A stretch of DNA of 36,937 nucleotides from a virus (Duplodnaviria; Heunggongvirae; Uroviricota; Caudoviricetes): IMG/VR virus record IMGVR_UViG_2698536485_000021; one strand, 5' to 3'. This document shows positions 5,331 to 13,194 of this stretch, one piece after another. The notes beneath the pieces were generated by a model. That model did no database searches and was not told where the DNA came from. It worked only from the letters and a program-made list of their open reading frames with translations. Each line of letters begins with the position of its first letter. Positions within the stretch are counted from its first letter, which is position 1. The translations under genes and the position numbers were made by a program.

Positions 5331-6184
5331 GCACCATCCTGAAATGGGCGGGTAATAAAACCGCCATTATGTCCGAACTGAAAAAATACCTTCCTGCTGG
5401 CCCGCGACTGGTTGAACCTTTCGCGGGTTCTTGTGCTGTGATGATGGCGACGGATTACCCCAGCTATCTGGTTGCGGATATTAATCCTGATTTAATCAAC
5501 CTCTATAAAAAGATTGCCGCTGATTGCGAAGCGTTTATATCTCGTGCCAAAGTTTTATTTGAGGAAGCAAACAGTGAGCTGGCTTATTACAACATAAGAC
5601 AGGAGTTTAATTACTCAACTGAAATTACTGATTTCATGAAGGCGATATATTTCCTGTATCTCAATCGTCACGGTTACCGTGGTTTATGTCGCTATAACAA
5701 GAGCGGGTATTTCAACATTCCCTACGGTAATTATAAAAATCCGTATTTCCCTGAAAAAGAAATTCGCGCATTTGCAGAGAAAGCCCAGCGGGCAACGTTT
5801 ATCTGCGCGAGCTTTGATGAAACGCTGGCGATGCTGCAGGTGGGGGATGTGGTGTATTGCGATCCGCCGTATGACGGTACGTTTTCCGGCTATCACACTG
5901 ATGGTTTCACTGAAGATGACCAGTATCACCTGGCATCCATTCTTGAACATCGGTCATCAGAAGGACATCCGGTCATTGTTTCTAACAATGACACATCCCT
6001 GATTCGTTCGCTGTATCGCAATTTTACTCACCACTATATCAAGGCAAAACGCAGCATCGGCGTGTCAGCTGGCGAGGGTAAATCTGCAACAGAAATCATT
6101 GCTGTTTCCGGGCCGAGCTGCTGGTTGGGATTTGATCCTTCGCGTGGCGTGGATAGTTCTGCCGTGTACGGAGTGTGTGTATGA
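5327..6184 (+). CDS. dam: DNA adenine methyltransferase (Dam-like, N6-adenine MTase)
   Basis: N-terminal KWAGNK and FAGSCAV (SAM-binding) plus DPPY catalytic motif; start overlaps the TraR stop and its stop overlaps the gene A start. Confidence 0.85.
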
Positions 6185-8595
6185 GTCATGACGATATGAA
6201 CAATTGCAGCGGCTTTAACGAGGCCGCCGCAGCATTTTCATGGAACGGCTCGAAAAAGGCCATTAACCCTTATCTGGACCCGGCGGAAGTTGCGCCGGAG
6301 TCTGCACTTTCAAACCTGATCACTCTGTACGCTGCCGATAACGAGCAGGAACAACTGCGCCGCGAGGCACTGAGTGAGCAGGTCTGGGAGCGTTATTTCT
6401 TTAATGAATCCCGTGATCCTGTCCAGCGCGAAATGGAGCAGGATAAGCTCATTAGCCGGGCAAAGCTGGCGCATGAACAGCAGCGTTTTAATCCGGACAT
6501 GATCATTCTGGCGGACGTAAACGCCCAGCCTTCCCATATCAGCAAGCCGCTGATGCAACGTATTGAATACTTCAGCAGCCTGGGCAGGCCAAAGGCTTAT
6601 TCCCGCTATTTGCGTGAGACGATTAAGCCATGTCTGGAGCGACTGGATTGTGTACGTGACAGTCAGCTATCTGTTTCTTTCCGTTTTATGGCAAGCCATC
6701 AAGGGCTGGAGGGTCTGCTGATCCTGCCTGAAATGAGCCAGGATCAGGTGAAACGCCTGTCCACCCTGGTAGCAGCGCATATGAGCATGTGTCTTGAGGA
6801 CGCTTGTGGTGATTTGTATGCCACCGATGACGTTAAGCCAGAAGAAATCCGCAAGACATGGGAAAAGGTGGCAGCGGAAACCCTGCGTCTGGATGTTATC
6901 CCGCCTGCGTTTGAGAAACTTCGTCGGAAAAGAAACCGCCGCAAACCAGTGCCCTATGAACTCATCCCGGGTTCGCTGGCGCGTATGTTGTGTGCCGACT
7001 GGTGGTATCGGAAATTATGGAAGATGCGTTGCGAATGGCGGGAAGAGCAGTTGCGTGCTGTCTGCCTGGTCAGCAAAAAAGCATCCCCCTATGTCAGCTA
7101 TGAAGCCGTGATGCATAAACGTGAGCAGCGCCGTAAGTCGCTGGAGTTTTTTCGTTCTCATGAACTGGTGAACGAAGACGGCGACACGCTGGATATGGAA
7201 GATGTGGTAAACGCCAGCAGCAGCAACCCGGCGCATCGCCGCAATGAGATGATGGCCTGTGTTAAAGGTCTGGAGCTTATCGCGGAAATGCGCAGTGACT
7301 GTGCCGTTTTCTACACTATCACCTGTCCGTCGCGTTTCCATTCCACGCTCAATAACGGCAGACCAAACCCGACCTGGACAAACGCGACGGTAAGACAAAG
7401 TAGCGATTATCTGGTCGGCATGTTTGCTGCATTTCGTAAGGCTATGCATAAAGCCGAGTTGCGCTGGTATGGCGTGCGGGTAGCTGAGCCGCATCATGAC
7501 GGTACTGTGCACTGGCATCTCATGTGTTTCATGCGTAAAAAAGACCGCCGCGCCATCACTGCATTACTGCGTAAGTTTGCCATCCGTGAAGACCGCGAGG
7601 AGCTGGGCAATAACACGGGACCACGCTTTAAGTCTGAGCTTATAAACCCGCGCAAAGGTACGCCAACAAGCTATATCGCGAAATACATCAGTAAGAACAT
7701 TGACGGGCGTGGTCTGGCTGGGGAGATCAGCAAGGAAACGGGTAAATCCCTGCGTGATAACGCTGAATACGTTAATGCCTGGGCGTCTCTGCATCGTGTT
7801 CAGCAATTCCGCTTCTTTGGCATTCCGGGGCGTCAGGCTTACCGTGAACTGCGATTGCTGGCTGGTCAGGCGGCAAGGCAACAGGGTGACAAAAAAGCAG
7901 GTGCGCCGGTACTGGATAACCCGCGCCTTGATGCCATTCTGGCTGCTGCTGATGCTGGTTGTTTTGCCACCTATATCATGAAGCAGGGCGGCGTACTGGT
8001 TCCCCGTAAATATCACCTCATCAGAACCGCTTATGAAATCAACGAAGAGCCAACCGCCTATGGCGATCACGGTATTCGTATTTATGGCATCTGGTCACCC
8101 ATTGCAGAGGGCAAGATCTGCACTCATGCGGTGAAGTGGAAAATGGTTCGTAAGGCCGTTGACGTTCAGGAGGCGGCAGCCGACCAGGGCGCTTGCGCCC
8201 CTTGGACTCGTGGCAATAACTGTCCCCTTGCTGAAAATTTGAACCAACAAGGGAAAGACAAATCAGCTGATGGGGACTCCAGAACGGATATTACCCGTAT
8301 GAATGACAAGGAGTTGCACGATTACCTGCACAGTATGAGCAAAAAAGAGCGCCGGGAACTGGCTGCAAGGTTACGCCAGGTGAAACCGAAACGGCGTAAA
8401 GACTACAAACAGCGAATTACAGACCATCAGCGACAGCAGCTCGTCTATGAACTGAAGTCCAGGGGATTTGATGGCAGCGAGAAAGAAGTCGATTTGCTCC
8501 TTCGCGGCGGCAGTATTCCGTCAGGAGCAGGCCTGCGTATCTTCTATCGGAACCAGCGTCTGAAGGAAGATGATAAGTGGCGGAACCTATATTAA
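6181..8595 (+). CDS. A: Replication initiation protein A (rolling-circle nickase, P2 gpA-like)
   Basis: ~805 aa; HUH-type motif (VHWHLM) and tandem active-site tyrosine motif (YIAKYISK); position after the early small genes. Confidence 0.85.
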
Positions 8596-8687
8596 TTACG
8601 CGGGTTAACAATTCGTGCTCTTAATAATACCAGGCATATCAGGCCGATGAACGTAAAAAAACGTTTTACATCAGTAAGATTATTATA

Positions 8688-8707
8688 TACTGTAAATATA
8701 AACAGTG
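8688..8707. promoter_or_regulatory. LexA operator (SOS box) TACTGTAAATATAAACAGTG upstream of the 8748 ORF
   Basis: Fits CTGT-N8-ACAG with an AT-rich spacer (CTGT 8690-8693, ACAG 8702-8705); 40 bp upstream of a strong AGGAGG RBS and ATG. Confidence 0.7.
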
Positions 8708-8747
8708 GTTATGTGTACAGTATTGTTTTGGTGTCATAGGAGGAAAG

Positions 8748-8936
8748 ATGCAGGACTATTTTTTGGAGTCTTTGAAGCTCCAGCGCATTGATTTTTTTCT
8801 TAAGCTTGTAGCGGCTAGTGAGTGTAGTGATGAAGAGAAGGGGCTGGCTCTGCAGTGGGTTTCTGAATTGACTGATGAACTCATGGCAAAAATCAGAAGC
8901 CACGAATACAACCGCTCAATGGATGTCATCAGCTGA
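8748..8936 (+). CDS. SOS-controlled small protein; possible Tum-like antirepressor component
   Basis: 62-aa ORF with AGGAGG RBS directly downstream of the LexA box; 186 carries the LexA-controlled antirepressor gene tum at this position. Confidence 0.5.
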   Translation: MQDYFLESLKLQRIDFFLKLVAASECSDEEKGLALQWVSELTDELMAKIRSHEYNRSMDVIS

Positions 8937-8946
8937 GGTGACTTTT

Positions 8947-9180
8947 ATGCGCATTGAAATAATGATCGATAAAGAGCAGAAGATTAGCCAGTCTACCCTG
9001 GACGCCCTTGAATCCGAGCTTTACCGCAATCTGCGCCCCCTGTATCCCAAAACGGTAATTCGCGTTCGCAAAGGTAGCTCTAACGGTGTGGAACTAACCG
9101 GACTGCAACTGGATGAAGAAAGAAAACAAGTGATGAAAATTATGCAGAAGGTGTGGGAGGACGACAGCTGGCTGCATTAA
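8947..9180 (+). CDS. DinI-family protein
   Basis: MRIEIMIDK...ELTGLQLDEERKQVMKIMQKVWEDDSWL follows the DinI pattern (N-terminal MRIE and C-terminal acidic W-containing tail); GAGGTG RBS 7 nt upstream of ATG 8947. Confidence 0.75.
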   Translation: MRIEIMIDKEQKISQSTLDALESELYRNLRPLYPKTVIRVRKGSSNGVELTGLQLDEERKQVMKIMQKVWEDDSWLH

Positions 9181-9372
9181 GAAATGTTGCCCCCAGGAGG
9201 ATTCATTCTGATGGGGGCTAGTTTGGGCAATGAGTGAAATAAGGCGTAAGGTGGGCGGTTATTTTGATAAGTGATCGTCCGCTTTGTGTCAGAAGCAGAA
9301 GTGGGAGTGTCTGAGACTCTCTAAAAGTTGATGATTCACTTACAAAACCATTTTCCTGATGGATGCTTACAC

Positions 9373-9708
9373 TTACGAATGATCATTCTGTTTAGTCTTC
9401 ATGAGAAAATCCCGAATCTTTGCCAAGTTTGAATTTTCGGGGATTGAATCCATGTACGGATCACGCTCAAACACTAATTGCTCAGATTCAACGAAAGCCT
9501 GCCACTCTACTGGGTCTAGCTCAAATCCCATTGCTGTCATATCACTTTCATCTTCCCCCTCGATCCAGTGGACTAAATAAAACAATTCATCATCAGGAGA
9601 ATCATCCTCACCATCAACAATATCAACATCGGTTACAGTGATACGTAGGGTGGGATCGATTTTTGAGACATAAATTCCTAACTGTGGTATAGGGGGAATA
9701 TTGTTCAT
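9373..9708 (-). CDS. Small, strongly acidic protein of unknown function
   Basis: 111-aa ORF rich in D/E (DVDIVDGEDDSPDDE, EGEDESD); AGGAG RBS upstream; opposite strand to its neighbours. Confidence 0.6.
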   Translation of the reverse strand: MNNIPPIPQLGIYVSKIDPTLRITVTDVDIVDGEDDSPDDELFYLVHWIEGEDESDMTAMGFELDPVEWQAFVESEQLVFERDPYMDSIPENSNLAKIRDFLMKTKQNDHS

Positions 9709-10087
9709 GGAAACTCCTTTTATTGGTGTTTGCTATTTGAATAAAAATACGCCAAACAGAGTGTTAACTGTGAATATGGAAAGAATCGTTGTAAGTACCC
9801 CGCTTAGGTGTCCCATTCTATTTTAGAGGTTCTCGTGCATATGGATTATGTTATCTGAAAGTTAACTTCCGCTTCCCGTTCACAGCGAACATTCATCTTT
9901 GTAAACCCGTATGATCCGTTTTTCAAGTGGCCATTCAGATACGGATTTTTACTTCTTTGACAGTGCATGACTATGCTGCATGAAATCGCATGATCGATTG
10001 AGGATCGTCTTTGCTCAGATCCGCCAGAACTGGCGGGCTTTTGCTCATGTCATGCATGTGCATGAAAACCACTGCATAAAGCGGGCA

Positions 10088-10106
10088 GGCGTGGCGGGGA
10101 TACGAG
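10088..10106. other. Possible cos (cohesive-end) site: GGCGTGGCGGGGA...
   Basis: From memory, P2/186 cohesive ends begin GGCG(A/T)GGCGGGGAAAGCA; the first 13 nt match here and the rest diverges; position between gene A side and Q side is as expected. Confidence 0.25.
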
Positions 10107-10184
10107 CGCGCGCAATGCTATGATCTGGCTCTTTCAAAACTGTTAACGGTTCTTCACATTCTTAAATGATCATGGTAGCTTAAA

Positions 10185-10322
10185 CATGCACATGTAGGCA
10201 GATTTGTTGGTTGTGGTATCGCAATCAGTGATCTAAATGTTAGATGGATTCGCCTTCTGACATCCTTGTAGCCATTCTTGGGCTGTCCTATGCTTTGCGT
10301 AAGAGTGCCTACATGTGCCTAC
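10185..10322 (+). ncRNA. Retron msr-msd non-coding RNA (template/primer for msDNA), approximate bounds
   Basis: Perfect 13-bp inverted repeat GCACATGTAGGCA (10188-10200) / TGCCTACATGTGC (10306-10318) placed like retron a1/a2 repeats, ending about 35 bp before the RT start; total span fits an Ec67-size msr+msd. Confidence 0.5.
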
Positions 10323-10353
10323 CCTAACTGATAATCAAGGTTGATTTTTAGAT

Positions 10354-11856
10354 ATGGCACCCCTATCAATTTTAGAACGTTTACAAAACGCTGCTAACAG
10401 GCAAGATTTGGCTAGTATCTTGAATCTTAAAACTGCTTTTCTTACGGATGTTATTTATCGTTTAAAAGCTGAAACGCAGTATACACAATTTACTATTCCT
10501 AAAAAAAACGGAGCGCCGAGAGTCATATCAGCACCTACCACTAAGCTCAAAGATATTCAACGTAGATTAGCTGATGTTTTATATTTATGTCGTGCAGAAA
10601 TTTATAAAAAATATAATATTAATCCAGTTTTATCTCATGGGTTTGAAAAAGAAAAGTCAATTATTACGAATGCTGAACGGCATAGAGGTAAAACGCTACT
10701 ACTAAATATAGATCTTGAGGATTATTTTGATAGTTTTAATTTTGGACGTGTTAGAGGTTTTTTCTTATCAAACAGAGATTTTAGATTAAATAATACTGTT
10801 GCTACAACGATCGCACAAATTGCATGTTTTCAGAATGGACTTCCTCAAGGAAGCCCATGCTCTCCAATTATAAGTAACTTAATCAGTGGAATTCTTGATA
10901 TAAGATTATCAAAGTTAGCAAAGAAATACGGATGCAATTATTCACGGTATGCTGATGATCTTACATTTTCAACTAATAAAAAAACATTTCCAAAAGAGAT
11001 TGCTGATGTTGGCGGAGAGTCTGTAACCCTAAGTCCAACTTTAATTAAAGAGATTATAAAGGCTGGCTTTAAAATAAATGATAAAAAGACAAGGGTTTGT
11101 TATAAAACATCACGACAAGATGTTACTGGGTTGACTGTTAATAAAAAAGTGAATGTTGGCAAAGAATATGCAAAAGTAACGCGTGCCATGGCTCATTCTC
11201 TTTATAAAGATGGTTCTTTTGTTATTGTTACTGAATCAGGAAAGATTGAAAAAGGTACATGTGCTAAATTAGAAGGCCGTTTTGGATTCATTGACTCAAT
11301 AGATAAATATAATAATTTAAAACTAAAGAATGCAAGACAGTTGGAAAAGTACCAAAGTGTAAATCATGGATTAAATTACACTGCAAAATTGAATTCGAGA
11401 GAAAAAGCCTACAGTTATTTTCTATACTATAAAAATTTTCATGGAATGGAAATGCCAACAATACTCACTGAGGGTAAAACAGACCGTGTATATTTAAAGT
11501 GTGCTTTGAAGTCATTGGCGAATTCATATCCTTTATTGTTTAATTCTTCTGATGATAGCTCTAAAAATGAGTATCGTGTTAATTTTTTTAAAGCAACTGA
11601 AAAAACAAGCTATTTTCTTGACATTTCTGGCGGTGCTACAGACTTCAAAAGATTTATATTAAGATACCAAGAACAAAAAAAGAGGTTCGAGAAATTTAAA
11701 CCAAAGCACCCTGTTATTATGCTTCTTGATAATGACTCAGGCCCTAAAGATTTATTAAATCACTTAAAGGATAAAGTAAAAATTGTCCAAATGATGTTGA
11801 TACTATTCGTAAGGCAAGGTATACCCACATATTTGACAATCTCTATTTGTTATTAA
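10354..11856 (+). CDS. Retron reverse transcriptase fused to a TOPRIM domain (Retron-Eco2/Ec67-like), reading frame broken near the 3' end
   Basis: RT motifs NIDLEDYFDS, QGSPCSPIISN, RYADDLTFS and retron-type VTGLTVN; TOPRIM-like TEGKTD glutamate and LLDNDSG DxD motif. Confidence 0.8.
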   Translation: MAPLSILERLQNAANRQDLASILNLKTAFLTDVIYRLKAETQYTQFTIPKKNGAPRVISAPTTKLKDIQRRLADVLYLCRAEIYKKYNINPVLSHGFEKEKSIITNAERHRGKTLLLNIDLEDYFDSFNFGRVRGFFLSNRDFRLNNTVATTIAQIACFQNGLPQGSPCSPIISNLISGILDIRLSKLAKKYGCNYSRYADDLTFSTNKKTFPKEIADVGGESVTLSPTLIKEIIKAGFKINDKKTRVCYKTSRQDVTGLTVNKKVNVGKEYAKVTRAMAHSLYKDGSFVIVTESGKIEKGTCAKLEGRFGFIDSIDKYNNLKLKNARQLEKYQSVNHGLNYTAKLNSREKAYSYFLYYKNFHGMEMPTILTEGKTDRVYLKCALKSLANSYPLLFNSSDDSSKNEYRVNFFKATEKTSYFLDISGGATDFKRFILRYQEQKKRFEKFKPKHPVIMLLDNDSGPKDLLNHLKDKVKIVQMMLILFVRQGIPTYLTISICY

Positions 11857-12110
11857 CACCATTGCTTCCTGGAGGGAAAGAGTCTTGTATGGAGGATTTA
11901 TTTGATAGCACGGTACTATCAACGGTGCTTGATGGAAAGACATTTAATAAATCTAATGATACGGATACAAAAACAGAATATGGTAAGCATGTGTTTTCAA
12001 CAAAGGTTATAAAGGCAAATTGTAAAACAATTAGTTTTGAAAAGTTTAAAGTTATTTTTGATGGTGTTGAGGAAATTATTGCAGATTATTCAAAGAGGTG
12101 CAAAGTATAA
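11775..12110 (+). pseudogene. C-terminal continuation of the RT-TOPRIM gene in a shifted frame (apparent 1-bp deletion within 11775-11856)
   Basis: Second frame opens at 11775 and runs to 12110; 500 + ~87 codons is close to the ~586 aa I recall for the Ec67 RT. Confidence 0.5.
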
Positions 12111-12159
12111 CTGTAATTACAGGCAAAGAGTATGCTCTTTGCCTTGTATTGTGGGACGA

Positions 12160-13194
12160 TTACATATCTAAGTTATATTCTGTAAATGCGATAATATCTG
12201 TACCTAACCAGACATTAATCTCCTTGATCCGTTTTTGCATTGATATCAATTCGTTTCTTACGAATACCTTACTAGCCTTTTCCACATCCCCAAACCCCCC
12301 AACATTATTAGGCATAATCCCCATCATTTGCGGCGGCACGCGGTGCGCAGCCATCATGTCATCGCGGCTGACATTTTTGATATTCAGAAACTCATCCTTC
12401 GCCGCGACCTCTGACAACGGGATAATCTGAAGCCCGTCTTTTTTGCCGTTAGGCGAGTACATAAACAGATTGCGGAAGTTGCCAGGACCTTTGGCGCTTT
12501 TCATCGCATTGCGGAGGTTGTTCACATCCTCCTGGTTCTGCGCGGCATCGGTCATGTACATGATGAAGCCTGCATGACTACCGTTAATGTAATATTTGCG
12601 GCGGAACAGCGTGGCGGACTCGTTGAGCAAAGCGGATGGGATGGCAGAAAGATAGCCGGGCAGGCCGTAGATCTCCTGATTAATATCCGGTTCCATCAGA
12701 TGAAAAATGCTGCCTTTCGTGAACTGATACGGCTGGGTTGTCATACCGTATTGCACAAACCAGTAGGTATCTAGGTCTAACCCGCGTCGGGTATATTTTG
12801 CCAGGGCAGGCTCAAGGGCGATAACTTCACCGAAGCGGTTCGTGTGTTTCTCCAGGTAGGCGTTACCAAATACCAGGTAGTCCTGCACAAAACGTGAAAA
12901 AGCCTGCTGGCTGAGCAGCGGGTGAGGGATATAGGTACTGGTCAGAATGTTGCACTTTACTGCAATCGGGGAACTGTGATGCACGGCAGCGCGGAAGGTG
13001 CGCGCCAGTCCGTCAAAGCTGACGGGCGGCTCATACCAACGGTCCATCTGTACGCATTCCACATAGTCCAGTAATTCTCGGCGGTCCAGAACAGGAACGG
13101 GATCGCCGAAGCTGAATGCTTCGGCTGTAGTTTGACTTTTAAGCTGGATCTGATTCGTCGCCGCAGCGCGGTTCTTCTTACTCTTTCCCATCAA
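12160..13194 (-). CDS. Q: Portal protein (P2 gpQ-like)
   Basis: 344 aa, same length as P2 Q; conserved blocks (FGDPVPVLDRRELLDYVEC, AVHHSSPI, LFRRKYY). Confidence 0.9.
   Translation of the reverse strand: MMGKSKKNRAAATNQIQLKSQTTAEAFSFGDPVPVLDRRELLDYVECVQMDRWYEPPVSFDGLARTFRAAVHHSSPIAVKCNILTSTYIPHPLLSQQAFSRFVQDYLVFGNAYLEKHTNRFGEVIALEPALAKYTRRGLDLDTYWFVQYGMTTQPYQFTKGSIFHLMEPDINQEIYGLPGYLSAIPSALLNESATLFRRKYYINGSHAGFIMYMTDAAQNQEDVNNLRNAMKSAKGPGNFRNLFMYSPNGKKDGLQIIPLSEVAAKDEFLNIKNVSRDDMMAAHRVPPQMMGIMPNNVGGFGDVEKASKVFVRNELISMQKRIKEINVWLGTDIIAFTEYNLDM

What the first reader, a model, noticed from the sequence alone, without database searches (positions are those of the whole stretch)
9373..9708. Strongly acidic 111-aa protein on the opposite strand beside the retron
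The ORF has a good RBS, is transcribed opposite to its neighbours and is unusually rich in Asp/Glu. Small highly acidic phage proteins are often DNA mimics or anti-defence factors (Ocr-like logic). Its position in the variable region next to the retron and the SOS-controlled module suggests an accessory, possibly counter-defence or retron-modulating, role.
Basis: inference. Interest (0 to 1): 0.5.

Follow-up and report, generated by a model that had tools for sequence, protein, structure and literature searches.

The report
Acidic DUF8087 cargo gene beside cos
The ORF is a real, conserved gene for a small, very acidic protein of unknown function (family DUF8087). It sits as a swappable cargo cassette next to the cohesive-end site of a P2/186-like prophage, is not tied to the neighbouring retron, and has not been tested as either a defence or a counter-defence factor.

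Summary
Window 9373-9708 (-) encodes a 111-aa protein with 26 Asp/Glu against 7 Lys/Arg, pI 4.05 and a good RBS. It is the most acidic ORF in the window.

The protein is identical to RefSeq WP_001059831.1, which is also present in BL21(DE3) and REL606. It belongs to Pfam DUF8087 / phrog_17127, both of unknown function.

- **Real gene:** dN/dS is 0.06-0.2, and all 101 relatives examined are acidic.
- **Fold:** the AlphaFold model (pLDDT 81) is a small SH3-like barrel with an acidic loop and a C-terminal helix. It has no significant match to Ocr, ArdA or any solved or viral structure.
- **Cassette:** the gene lies in a 771-bp insert (9191-9961) between the SOS-controlled DinI-like gene and the cos site.
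- **Not retron-linked:** the retron lies on the other side of cos. The identical protein sits beside five different cargos, and half of the Ec67-retron genomes lack it.
- **Origin:** in other P2-like prophages the gene sits in the lysogeny operon (repressor, Flk_N membrane protein, DUF8087, integrase). The window copy still carries about 14 vestigial integrase codons.

The accessory, variable-region reading is supported. The retron-modulator reading is not. The DNA-mimic or anti-defence reading is untested. My best guess is a prophage-expressed, non-enzymatic binder used in conflicts between mobile elements.

The parts
9373..9708 (-). Coding sequence of the 111-aa acidic protein, identical to WP_001059831.1 (family DUF8087 / PF26332 / phrog_17127)
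   Evidence: ORF and translation. phrog_17127 match at 2e-70. RefSeq annotation of the identical protein as 'DUF8087 domain-containing protein'. PF26332 label on all homologues. dN/dS 0.06-0.2. AF2 model with pLDDT 81.
9714..9720 (-). Shine-Dalgarno sequence AAAGGAG, 5 nt upstream of the ATG
   Evidence: Read directly from the sequence. Conserved in the copies from other genera.
9709..9882 (-). Conserved upstream region of about 170 nt that travels with the gene. The best promoter candidate is TTCACA (9769-9774), a 19-nt spacer, then TATTTT (9743-9748).
   Evidence: 84-88% nucleotide identity to the copies in E. coli islands, Serratia, Symbiopectobacterium, Lonsdalea and Proteus. The promoter candidate comes from a lenient scan; the strict scan found none. 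No covariation-supported RNA structure. No Rfam hit.
9339..9386 (-). Vestige of the first ~14 codons of a P2-type integrase (MIIRKCKHPSGKWFCK*), overlapping the 3' end of the gene
   Evidence: The match in the window itself is weak (tblastn E 0.01-0.04). In island copies the equivalent 71-aa ORF matches integrase N-termini at E 1e-11 to 1e-17. In native prophages a full integrase gene overlaps the DUF8087 stop codon.
9191..9961 (.). The whole 771-bp insert that occupies the slot between the DinI-like gene and cos
   Evidence: Backbone homology to vB_EcoM-813R9 and Fels-2 ends at 9190 (813R9; 9178 in Fels-2) and resumes at 9962/9965. The slot holds only 68 nt in 813R9 and an unrelated 243-aa gene in Fels-2.
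10088..10105 (+). P2-type cohesive-end (cos) motif GGCGTGGCGGGGATACGA, separating the DUF8087 slot from the retron slot
   Evidence: Pattern match. The linear genome of Salmonella phage SEN8 ends at the base aligned to window 10087. Segment 9962-10115 is conserved across P2-like phages.

Best explanation
**Shown.** The ORF is a functional stand-alone cargo gene (a 'moron') of the P2/186-like prophage. It occupies the small variable slot between the SOS-controlled DinI-like gene and the cos site. It belongs to family DUF8087. It was transplanted, with about 170 nt of its own upstream sequence and a stub of an integrase gene, from the lysogeny operon of another P2-like phage lineage. In that lineage the gene order is repressor, Flk_N membrane protein, DUF8087, integrase. 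The gene is independent of the retron on the other side of cos.

**Inferred.** The protein has no catalytic motif. It is predicted to be a compact SH3-like beta-barrel with a poly-acidic loop and a C-terminal helix. It most likely works stoichiometrically, by binding a positively charged surface on a partner protein, probably a nucleic-acid-binding one.

Its native position is in the repressor operon, and it persists in decayed elements. I therefore think it is made in the lysogen and serves conflicts between mobile elements. The most likely role is blocking a protein of a superinfecting phage or satellite (exclusion or defence). Disarming a host defence is less likely.
For: - **Real, constrained gene:** phrog_17127 at 2e-70, 61 homologue clusters, dN/dS 0.06-0.2, and acidity conserved in all 101 relatives down to about 30% identity.
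- **Cassette boundaries and slot polymorphism:**
- **Independence from the retron:** five different cargos beside the identical protein, and Ec67 found with and without it.
- **Native operon:** HTH repressor, Flk_N protein, DUF8087, int, with the DUF8087 stop overlapping the int start, in E. coli, Enterobacter, Klebsiella and metagenomic P2-like prophages.
- **Vestigial integrase codons in the window:**
- **The native slot is itself swappable:** a BRCT protein or a DUF2511 protein sits there in other prophages.
- **Both locations are published P2 defence hotspots:** PMC9122126 and PMC13586616.
- **Alternative occupants of the DinI-cos slot are defence-like:** a HEPN protein, or a restriction endonuclease plus an ASCH protein.
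- **Retained intact in decayed or non-phage settings:**
  - the defective BL21 prophage;
  - the ychF island with truncated int, an allele found in 82 E. coli genomes;
  - islands in four other genera.
Against: - No functional data exist for any member of the family.
- Expression in the lysogen is inferred from position only. No strong sigma-70 promoter was found upstream; the only candidate has a 19-nt spacer.
- Guilt by association with defence hotspots cannot separate defence from counter-defence.
- The native partner-like neighbour, the Flk_N membrane protein, is absent from the window, so a partner-dependent function would be lost here.
- The binding-partner idea rests on charge and on the lack of catalytic motifs, not on any detected interaction.
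Confidence: 0.4

Rival explanations
1. Counter-defence factor. The acidic protein mimics DNA or otherwise binds and inhibits a host nuclease-type defence (restriction-modification or similar), protecting the incoming or induced phage genome.
For: - Extreme, family-wide acidity, which is typical of DNA mimics (PMC2926617).
- The gene lies only about 380 nt from the right cohesive end of the mature linear genome and reads inward, an Ocr-like 'end gene' position.
- It spreads as a small cassette among phages, islands and ICE-like elements.
Against: - No sequence or fold similarity to Ocr, ArdA or any solved or viral structure.
- The acidic loop varies from 0 to about 12 residues in the family, so it is not a fixed charge ruler.
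- The native position is in the repressor-integrase operon, not an early lytic operon.
- It is kept in decayed, immobile elements, where counter-defence brings no obvious benefit.
- It is absent from all 50,697 deposited phage genomes.
- A DefenseFinder anti-defence scan of 1,511 P2-like prophages found only Anti_RM and Anti_CRISPR types, in 28 elements (PMC13586616).
Confidence: 0.2
2. Regulator of the element's own life cycle. For example, an antirepressor that mimics operator DNA (CarS-like), or a modulator of the integrase with which it is translationally coupled in native prophages.
For: - In native contexts the stop codon overlaps the integrase start, and the gene shares an operon with the repressor.
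- In small int + HTH_17 + GPA elements it sits divergent from the replication operon, where a switch regulator would sit.
- CarS offers a precedent.
Against: - The same slot is filled by unrelated proteins (BRCT, DUF2511) in sister prophages, and the BRCT gene overlaps int in the same way. The overlap is therefore a property of the slot, not of the gene.
- The gene is under purifying selection in copies with no functional integrase or repressor next to it.
- The window prophage has a different repressor and integrase (its integrase is about 50% identical) and no Flk_N gene.
Confidence: 0.12
3. Orphan partner of a two-gene module. DUF8087 is the cytosolic partner (antitoxin, immunity or sensor) of the Flk_N tail-anchored membrane protein, Rex-like. 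The solitary copy here is either an anti-addiction remnant or inactive.
For: The Flk_N protein immediately precedes DUF8087 in every native P2-like operon seen.
Against: - The Flk_N-like membrane protein stays with the repressor while the downstream gene swaps, so the two are not an obligate pair.
- Most copies found in islands and in 186-like prophages lack Flk_N yet remain constrained.
- No PADLOC or Pfam family links them.
Confidence: 0.1
4. Retron modulator or accessory component of the adjacent Ec67 retron.
For: Only its adjacency on the prophage map.
Against: - The identical protein sits next to five unrelated cargos.
- Half of the Ec67 loci lack it.
- It is on the opposite strand, and cos lies between it and the retron.
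- Ec67-type retrons are single-gene RT-Toprim systems in PADLOC.
- In this window the RT-Toprim gene is itself frameshifted.
Confidence: 0.03

Closest known systems
Pfam DUF8087 (PF26332) / PHROG 17127, uncharacterised protein family
   Same: Full-length member. The protein is identical to WP_001059831.1, which newer RefSeq annotation calls 'DUF8087 domain-containing protein'. The phrog_17127 match is 2e-70 over residues 1-111.
   Different: Nothing differs; this is simple membership. The family has no known function and no literature.
Accessory genes of the P2 cos-proximal hotspot (old, tin; Rousset et al. 2022, PMC9122126)
   Same: It lies in the same gpA-gpQ interval next to cos, shows presence/absence polymorphism and has lower GC. 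WP_001059831 is listed there as 'hypothetical' in the paper's table of hotspot loci.
   Different: No homology to Old, Tin or any PADLOC model. It occupies a separate sub-slot, DinI to cos, distinct from the cos-to-portal sub-slot that holds the retron. Anti-phage activity has not been tested.
CarS antirepressor of Myxococcus xanthus (acidic SH3-like operator-DNA mimic; PMC2926617)
   Same: Small size, pI about 4, and a five-stranded SH3-like barrel as the predicted core. This shows how such a protein could work by sequestering a DNA-recognition helix.
Ocr (T7 gp0.3) and ArdA DNA-mimic anti-restriction proteins
   Same: Small and highly acidic, encoded near the end of the element's DNA.
   Different: No Pfam or PHROG match to those families, and no structural match in PDB or BFVD. 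The predicted fold is a beta-barrel. From my own knowledge, not tested here, Ocr is a helical dimer and ArdA an elongated multi-domain protein.
DUF1653 protein (PDB 3be3) and FeoA-type SH3-like small barrels
   Different: The scores are weak, identity is 8-13%, and only about 55-65 residues align. DUF1653 is itself uncharacterised, so nothing about function can be transferred.

Membership tests
DUF8087 (PF26332) / phrog_17127 | Full-length match to the family profile | tested here: met
   phrog_17127 at 2e-70 over residues 1-111 of 111. All 61 homologue clusters carry the precomputed PF26332 label. RefSeq names the identical protein DUF8087. The local Pfam copy lacks this model.
DUF8087 (PF26332) / phrog_17127 | Conserved core motifs (P8, G11, Y13, V25, V28, V46, E63, W69, L78) and overall acidity | tested here: met
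   Alignments A2 and A3. Net charge is -6 to -22 in all 101 members examined.
Ocr/ArdA-type DNA-mimic anti-restriction proteins | Strong net negative charge | tested here: met
   Net charge about -19, pI 4.05.
Ocr/ArdA-type DNA-mimic anti-restriction proteins | Sequence homology to the Ocr or ArdA families | tested here: not met
   No such Pfam, PHROG or PDB sequence hit.
Ocr/ArdA-type DNA-mimic anti-restriction proteins | Fold similarity to a known DNA mimic | tested here: not met
Ocr/ArdA-type DNA-mimic anti-restriction proteins | Inhibition of a restriction-modification or other DNA-targeting defence | not testable with these tools
   Needs plating assays or in-vitro binding.
CarS-like acidic SH3 DNA mimic (antirepressor) | Five-stranded SH3-like barrel with an acidic-lined pocket | tested here: inconclusive
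   The AF2 model has five strands plus helices. Matches to SH3, Tudor and FeoA folds are weak.
CarS-like acidic SH3 DNA mimic (antirepressor) | Homology to CarS | tested here: not met
   No PDB sequence hit with either the single sequence or the family profile.
Cargo of the P2 cos-proximal hotspot | Located between gpA and gpQ, adjacent to cos | tested here: met
   gpA at 6175-8595, cos at 10088-10105, portal at 12160-13194. WP_001059831 is listed in the hotspot table of PMC9122126.
Cargo of the P2 cos-proximal hotspot | Presence/absence or replacement among otherwise collinear phages | tested here: met
   The slot is empty in 813R9. It holds other genes in Fels-2, ECCTRSRTH03 (HEPN) and strain 2547 (restriction endonuclease plus ASCH protein).
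Cargo of the P2 cos-proximal hotspot | Anti-phage activity | not testable with these tools
   No PADLOC model matches. An experiment is needed.
Retron accessory or effector gene | Consistent co-occurrence and co-orientation with a retron RT and ncRNA | tested here: not met
   Five different neighbours. Ec67 occurs without it in 7 of 14 genomes. Opposite strand, with cos in between.
Moron (autonomous cargo cassette) | Deviant base composition and its own expression signals | tested here: inconclusive
   GC is 40% against 50% for the window. About 170 nt of upstream sequence moves with the gene. Only a weak promoter candidate was found and no clear terminator.

The most novel reading that the evidence does not exclude
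DUF8087 is a new family of small acidic SH3-like decoy proteins (functional DNA mimics). Elements with a P2/GPA-type replicon carry it in their hotspots to neutralise one specific DNA-binding protein of an opponent. That target would be either a host defence nuclease or a key protein of a competing phage or P4-type satellite. The copy here, about 380 nt from the right cohesive end, would act as an 'end gene' available as soon as the DNA enters the cell.
Probability: 0.2. Interest if true: 0.65.

Novelty: new member of a known kind. Interest (0 to 1): 0.35.

Why it matters
The protein is present, 100% identical, in the workhorse strains BL21(DE3) and REL606 and in EPEC E2348/69. It also occurs in two different cargo hotspots of P2-like prophages, which are known reservoirs of phage-defence genes, yet no member of the family has ever been studied.

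If it proves to be a defence or counter-defence factor, it would add a new, very small, non-enzymatic family to that repertoire, and it would be trivial to test in standard lab strains. For the scan itself, the useful result is negative: the gene is not part of the retron, and the Ocr analogy rests on charge alone.

Tried and rejected
- **Family and structure libraries:** Pfam, NCBIfam, PADLOC and PDB sequence searches of the protein and of the family profile gave nothing.
- **Fold searches:** Foldseek against PDB and BFVD found no significant hit. The afdb50 library was unavailable.
- **Rfam:** a scan of 8500-12300 gave no hit.
- **Upstream RNA structure:** RNAalifold on the conserved upstream region found one compensatory pair out of 36, so a structured leader is not supported.
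- **LexA control of the gene:** only a one-mismatch half-match (9768-9783). It is no better than chance and is not conserved in other copies, so I rejected it.
- **Upstream region as a relic of the Flk_N gene:** no tblastn similarity. Only the last ~50 nt are shared with native operons.
- **Deposited phage genomes:** tblastn with two family members found no match.
- **Plasmids:** one match only.
- **Literature:** searches for DUF8087, PF26332, phrog_17127 and the protein accessions found nothing.
- **DNA entry order:** a search for which P2 DNA end enters the cell first was unproductive.
- **Species-representative genomes:** the scan gave only four loci.

Full report
**What is there**

Window 9373-9708 on the minus strand is an ATG-to-TAA ORF of 111 codons. 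AAAGGAG precedes the start codon by 5 nt. The product has 26 Asp/Glu and 7 Lys/Arg, giving a net charge of about -19 and a pI of 4.05. It is the most acidic of the 61 ORFs of at least 80 aa in the window. The gene has 40% GC, against 50% for the window.

The window is a P2/186-like prophage of E. coli. The gene order around the ORF is:
- Dam methylase;
- replication endonuclease gpA (6175-8595);
- a perfect LexA box (8690-8705);
- a 62-aa ORF and a DinI-like gene (to 9180);
- the acidic ORF, on the opposite strand;
- a P2-type cos motif (10088-10105);
- a retron of the Ec67 RT-Toprim type (ncRNA region, then RT from 10354);
- portal and terminase, on the minus strand.

**It is a real gene of a catalogued but unstudied family**

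The protein matches phrog_17127 (unknown function) end to end at 2e-70. It is identical to RefSeq WP_001059831.1, which older annotations call 'hypothetical' and newer ones call 'DUF8087 domain-containing protein'.

- A search of 5.8 billion proteins returned 61 clusters, all labelled PF26332 and all from Enterobacterales.
- An exhaustive profile search of 1.84 billion representatives found only 35 representative proteins. These extend to acidic proteins of 70-130 aa at about 30-45% identity, some from Betaproteobacteria.
- Pairwise dN/dS among 11 copies is 0.06-0.2.
- Every one of the 101 family members examined is acidic, with net charge -6 to -22 and pI at most 4.99. The length of the poly-acidic loop, however, varies from 0 to about 12 residues.
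- Positions conserved across the wide family are P8, G11, Y13, V25, V28, V46, E63, W69 and L78.

**Structure**

An AlphaFold2 model built on 43 sequences has mean pLDDT 81. It consists of:
- four strands, with the acidic loop (residues 32-42, lower confidence) between strands 2 and 3;
- a helix at 66-76;
- a fifth strand;
- a C-terminal helix at 94-108.

**It is a cassette in its own slot, separated from the retron by cos**

Homology to the collinear phages vB_EcoM-813R9 and Fels-2 stops at 9190 (9178 in Fels-2) and resumes at 9962 (9965). The slot holds 68 nt in 813R9 and an unrelated 243-aa gene in Fels-2. In other E. coli prophages it holds a HEPN protein, or a restriction endonuclease plus an ASCH protein.

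The conserved block 9962-10115 contains the cos motif. The deposited linear genome of Salmonella phage SEN8 ends exactly at the base aligned to 10087. The gpA-gpQ hotspot of Rousset et al. (PMC9122126) is therefore really two slots, one on each side of cos. DUF8087 lies in the left slot and the retron in the right. On the packaged linear DNA the two are at opposite ends.

**It is not linked to the retron**

The ORF occurs in 214 of 5,426 complete E. coli genomes, as two alleles: at least 99% identity in 132 records and about 88.7% in 82. The identical protein sits beside five different cargos:
- retron Ec86 in BL21(DE3) and a strain labelled C;
- retron Ec67;
- an OLD-like nuclease;
- a Sll1717-type P-loop ATPase;
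- a DprA system in E2348/69.

Conversely, this Ec67 retron is found in 14 genomes, and only 7 of them carry DUF8087. The retron-modulator idea is therefore not supported.

**Where the cassette came from**

The stretch 9337-9882 comprises the gene, 36 nt downstream and about 170 nt upstream. It recurs at 84-88% identity outside P2-like phages:
- in an integrase island at ychF in E. coli (the 88.7% allele);
- in islands or ICE-like elements of Serratia, Symbiopectobacterium, Lonsdalea and Proteus.

In three of those copies (E. coli, Serratia, Lonsdalea) a 71-aa ORF overlaps the stop codon; Symbiopectobacterium and Proteus retain only tblastn-detectable remnants of the same sequence. All five match the N-terminus of P2-type integrases at E 1e-8 to 1e-17. 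The window keeps only about 14 of its codons, at 9339-9386.

In a lineage of P2-like prophages the gene sits in the lysogeny operon. These prophages are integrated at pgsA/uvrC in E. coli, Enterobacter and Klebsiella, and also appear in metagenomes. The operon order is HTH repressor, a ~210-aa tail-anchored Flk_N-domain protein, DUF8087, then integrase, with the DUF8087 stop overlapping the integrase start. That position is itself a swap slot: sister prophages carry a BRCT-domain protein or a DUF2511 protein there. The integrase-primase interval is a reported minor defence hotspot of P2 (PMC13586616).

Distant relatives sit in small int + HTH_17 + GPA elements. These carry TIR-STAND, Gabija-like or BglII cargo.

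The family is absent from 50,697 deposited phage genomes and occurs in one plasmid record.

**Expression signals**

The ~170 nt upstream are as conserved as the coding region. However, a strict sigma-70 scan finds no promoter. The best candidate is TTCACA, a 19-nt spacer, then TATTTT. There is no Rfam hit and no covariation-supported structure. A LexA-like half-match at 9768-9783 is at chance level and is not conserved. Expression is therefore inferred, not shown.

**How it most likely works**

Shown: it is a constrained, autonomous cargo gene with a small, non-enzymatic, acidic, SH3-like product. It is mobile between two P2 hotspots and other islands, and independent of the retron.

Inferred: it acts by stoichiometric binding of a basic, probably nucleic-acid-binding, partner. 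CarS, an acidic SH3-like operator-DNA mimic (PMC2926617), shows that this architecture can do so.

Three observations favour a prophage-expressed exclusion or defence role (about 0.4) over counter-defence (about 0.2):
- its native place is in the repressor operon;
- the other occupants of its slots are defence-like;
- it survives in defective prophages and islands.

The other readings are self-regulation of the element (about 0.12), an orphan partner of the Flk_N protein (about 0.1) and a retron accessory (about 0.03). None of these can be separated without experiments.

**Comparison with what is known, and novelty**

It is a plain member of DUF8087/phrog_17127. It is already listed as a 'hypothetical' gene in the published table of P2 hotspot loci. 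No paper mentions the family. It resembles Ocr and ArdA only in charge, and CarS only in charge and approximate fold; it fails the homology and fold tests for both.

I rate it a new (uncharacterised) member of a known kind, namely hotspot cargo of P2-like prophages. Interest is moderate to low (0.35): the finding is ordinary as it stands. It is cheap to test because the gene is in BL21(DE3), and it would be of real interest if it turned out to be a new decoy-type defence or anti-defence protein.

Noticed in passing
window 11777-11781 (RT-Toprim ORFs 10354-11856 and 11847-12110): The retron Ec67-type RT-Toprim gene is split into 500-aa and 87-aa ORFs by loss of one A in an A-run (A5 here, A6 in strain Ec1117, where the gene is an intact 585 aa). 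Six other complete genomes match the window at 100% identity across this region and are annotated with the same split. The Toprim effector domain is probably truncated.
   Followed up: yes
window 8690-8705: A perfect LexA box, CTGTAAATATAAACAG, lies just upstream of the 62-aa ORF and the DinI-like gene. This is consistent with an SOS-controlled, 186 Tum-like module (the resemblance to 186 p95 is from memory).
   Followed up: partly
window 9962-10115 (cos motif 10088-10105): The conserved cos block divides the published gpA-gpQ hotspot into two independent variable slots, DinI to cos and cos to portal. The linear genome of Salmonella phage SEN8 ends at the base aligned to 10087.
   Followed up: yes
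window 9760-9882: About 120 nt upstream of the gene are conserved only among the transplanted 'module' copies (E. coli island, Serratia, Symbiopectobacterium, Lonsdalea, Proteus) and not in the native operon. No promoter consensus, RNA family or coding potential explains this.
   Followed up: partly
L015 7343-7990; L031 8344-8976; L029 8341-8976: An uncharacterised ~210-aa tail-anchored Flk_N-domain membrane protein is conserved directly after the repressor in a lineage of P2-like prophages. The slot between it and the integrase alternates between DUF8087, a BRCT-domain protein (L035) and a DUF2511 protein (O157:H7, L036).
   Followed up: partly
L023 (Nitrosospira multiformis) and L027 (metagenome): Small integrative elements with integrase, an HTH_17 protein and a Phage_GPA replication protein carry defence cargo: TIR-STAND, OLD-like plus UvrD (Gabija-like), or a BglII restriction-modification system. 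Each also carries a DUF8087 relative with a basic N-terminal extension (MGQAKLRGSKEERIAQ...), divergent from the replication operon.
   Followed up: no
L012 / L022 (E. coli island at ychF): The 88.7% allele lies in an integrase island. It sits next to a conserved 127-aa protein with a hydrophobic stretch near its N-terminus, possibly a membrane segment, and a 1,589-aa helicase that matches the PADLOC TmtA and Mokosh MkoA models. RadC and DUF2787 genes are also in the island.
   Followed up: no
L024-L026 (Pantoea sp.): A solitary, divergent DUF8087 gene (33% identity) sits next to pgsA/uvrC, the attachment region used by the P2-like prophages that carry the native operon. No phage genes remain. 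It may be a relic of a lost prophage.
   Followed up: no
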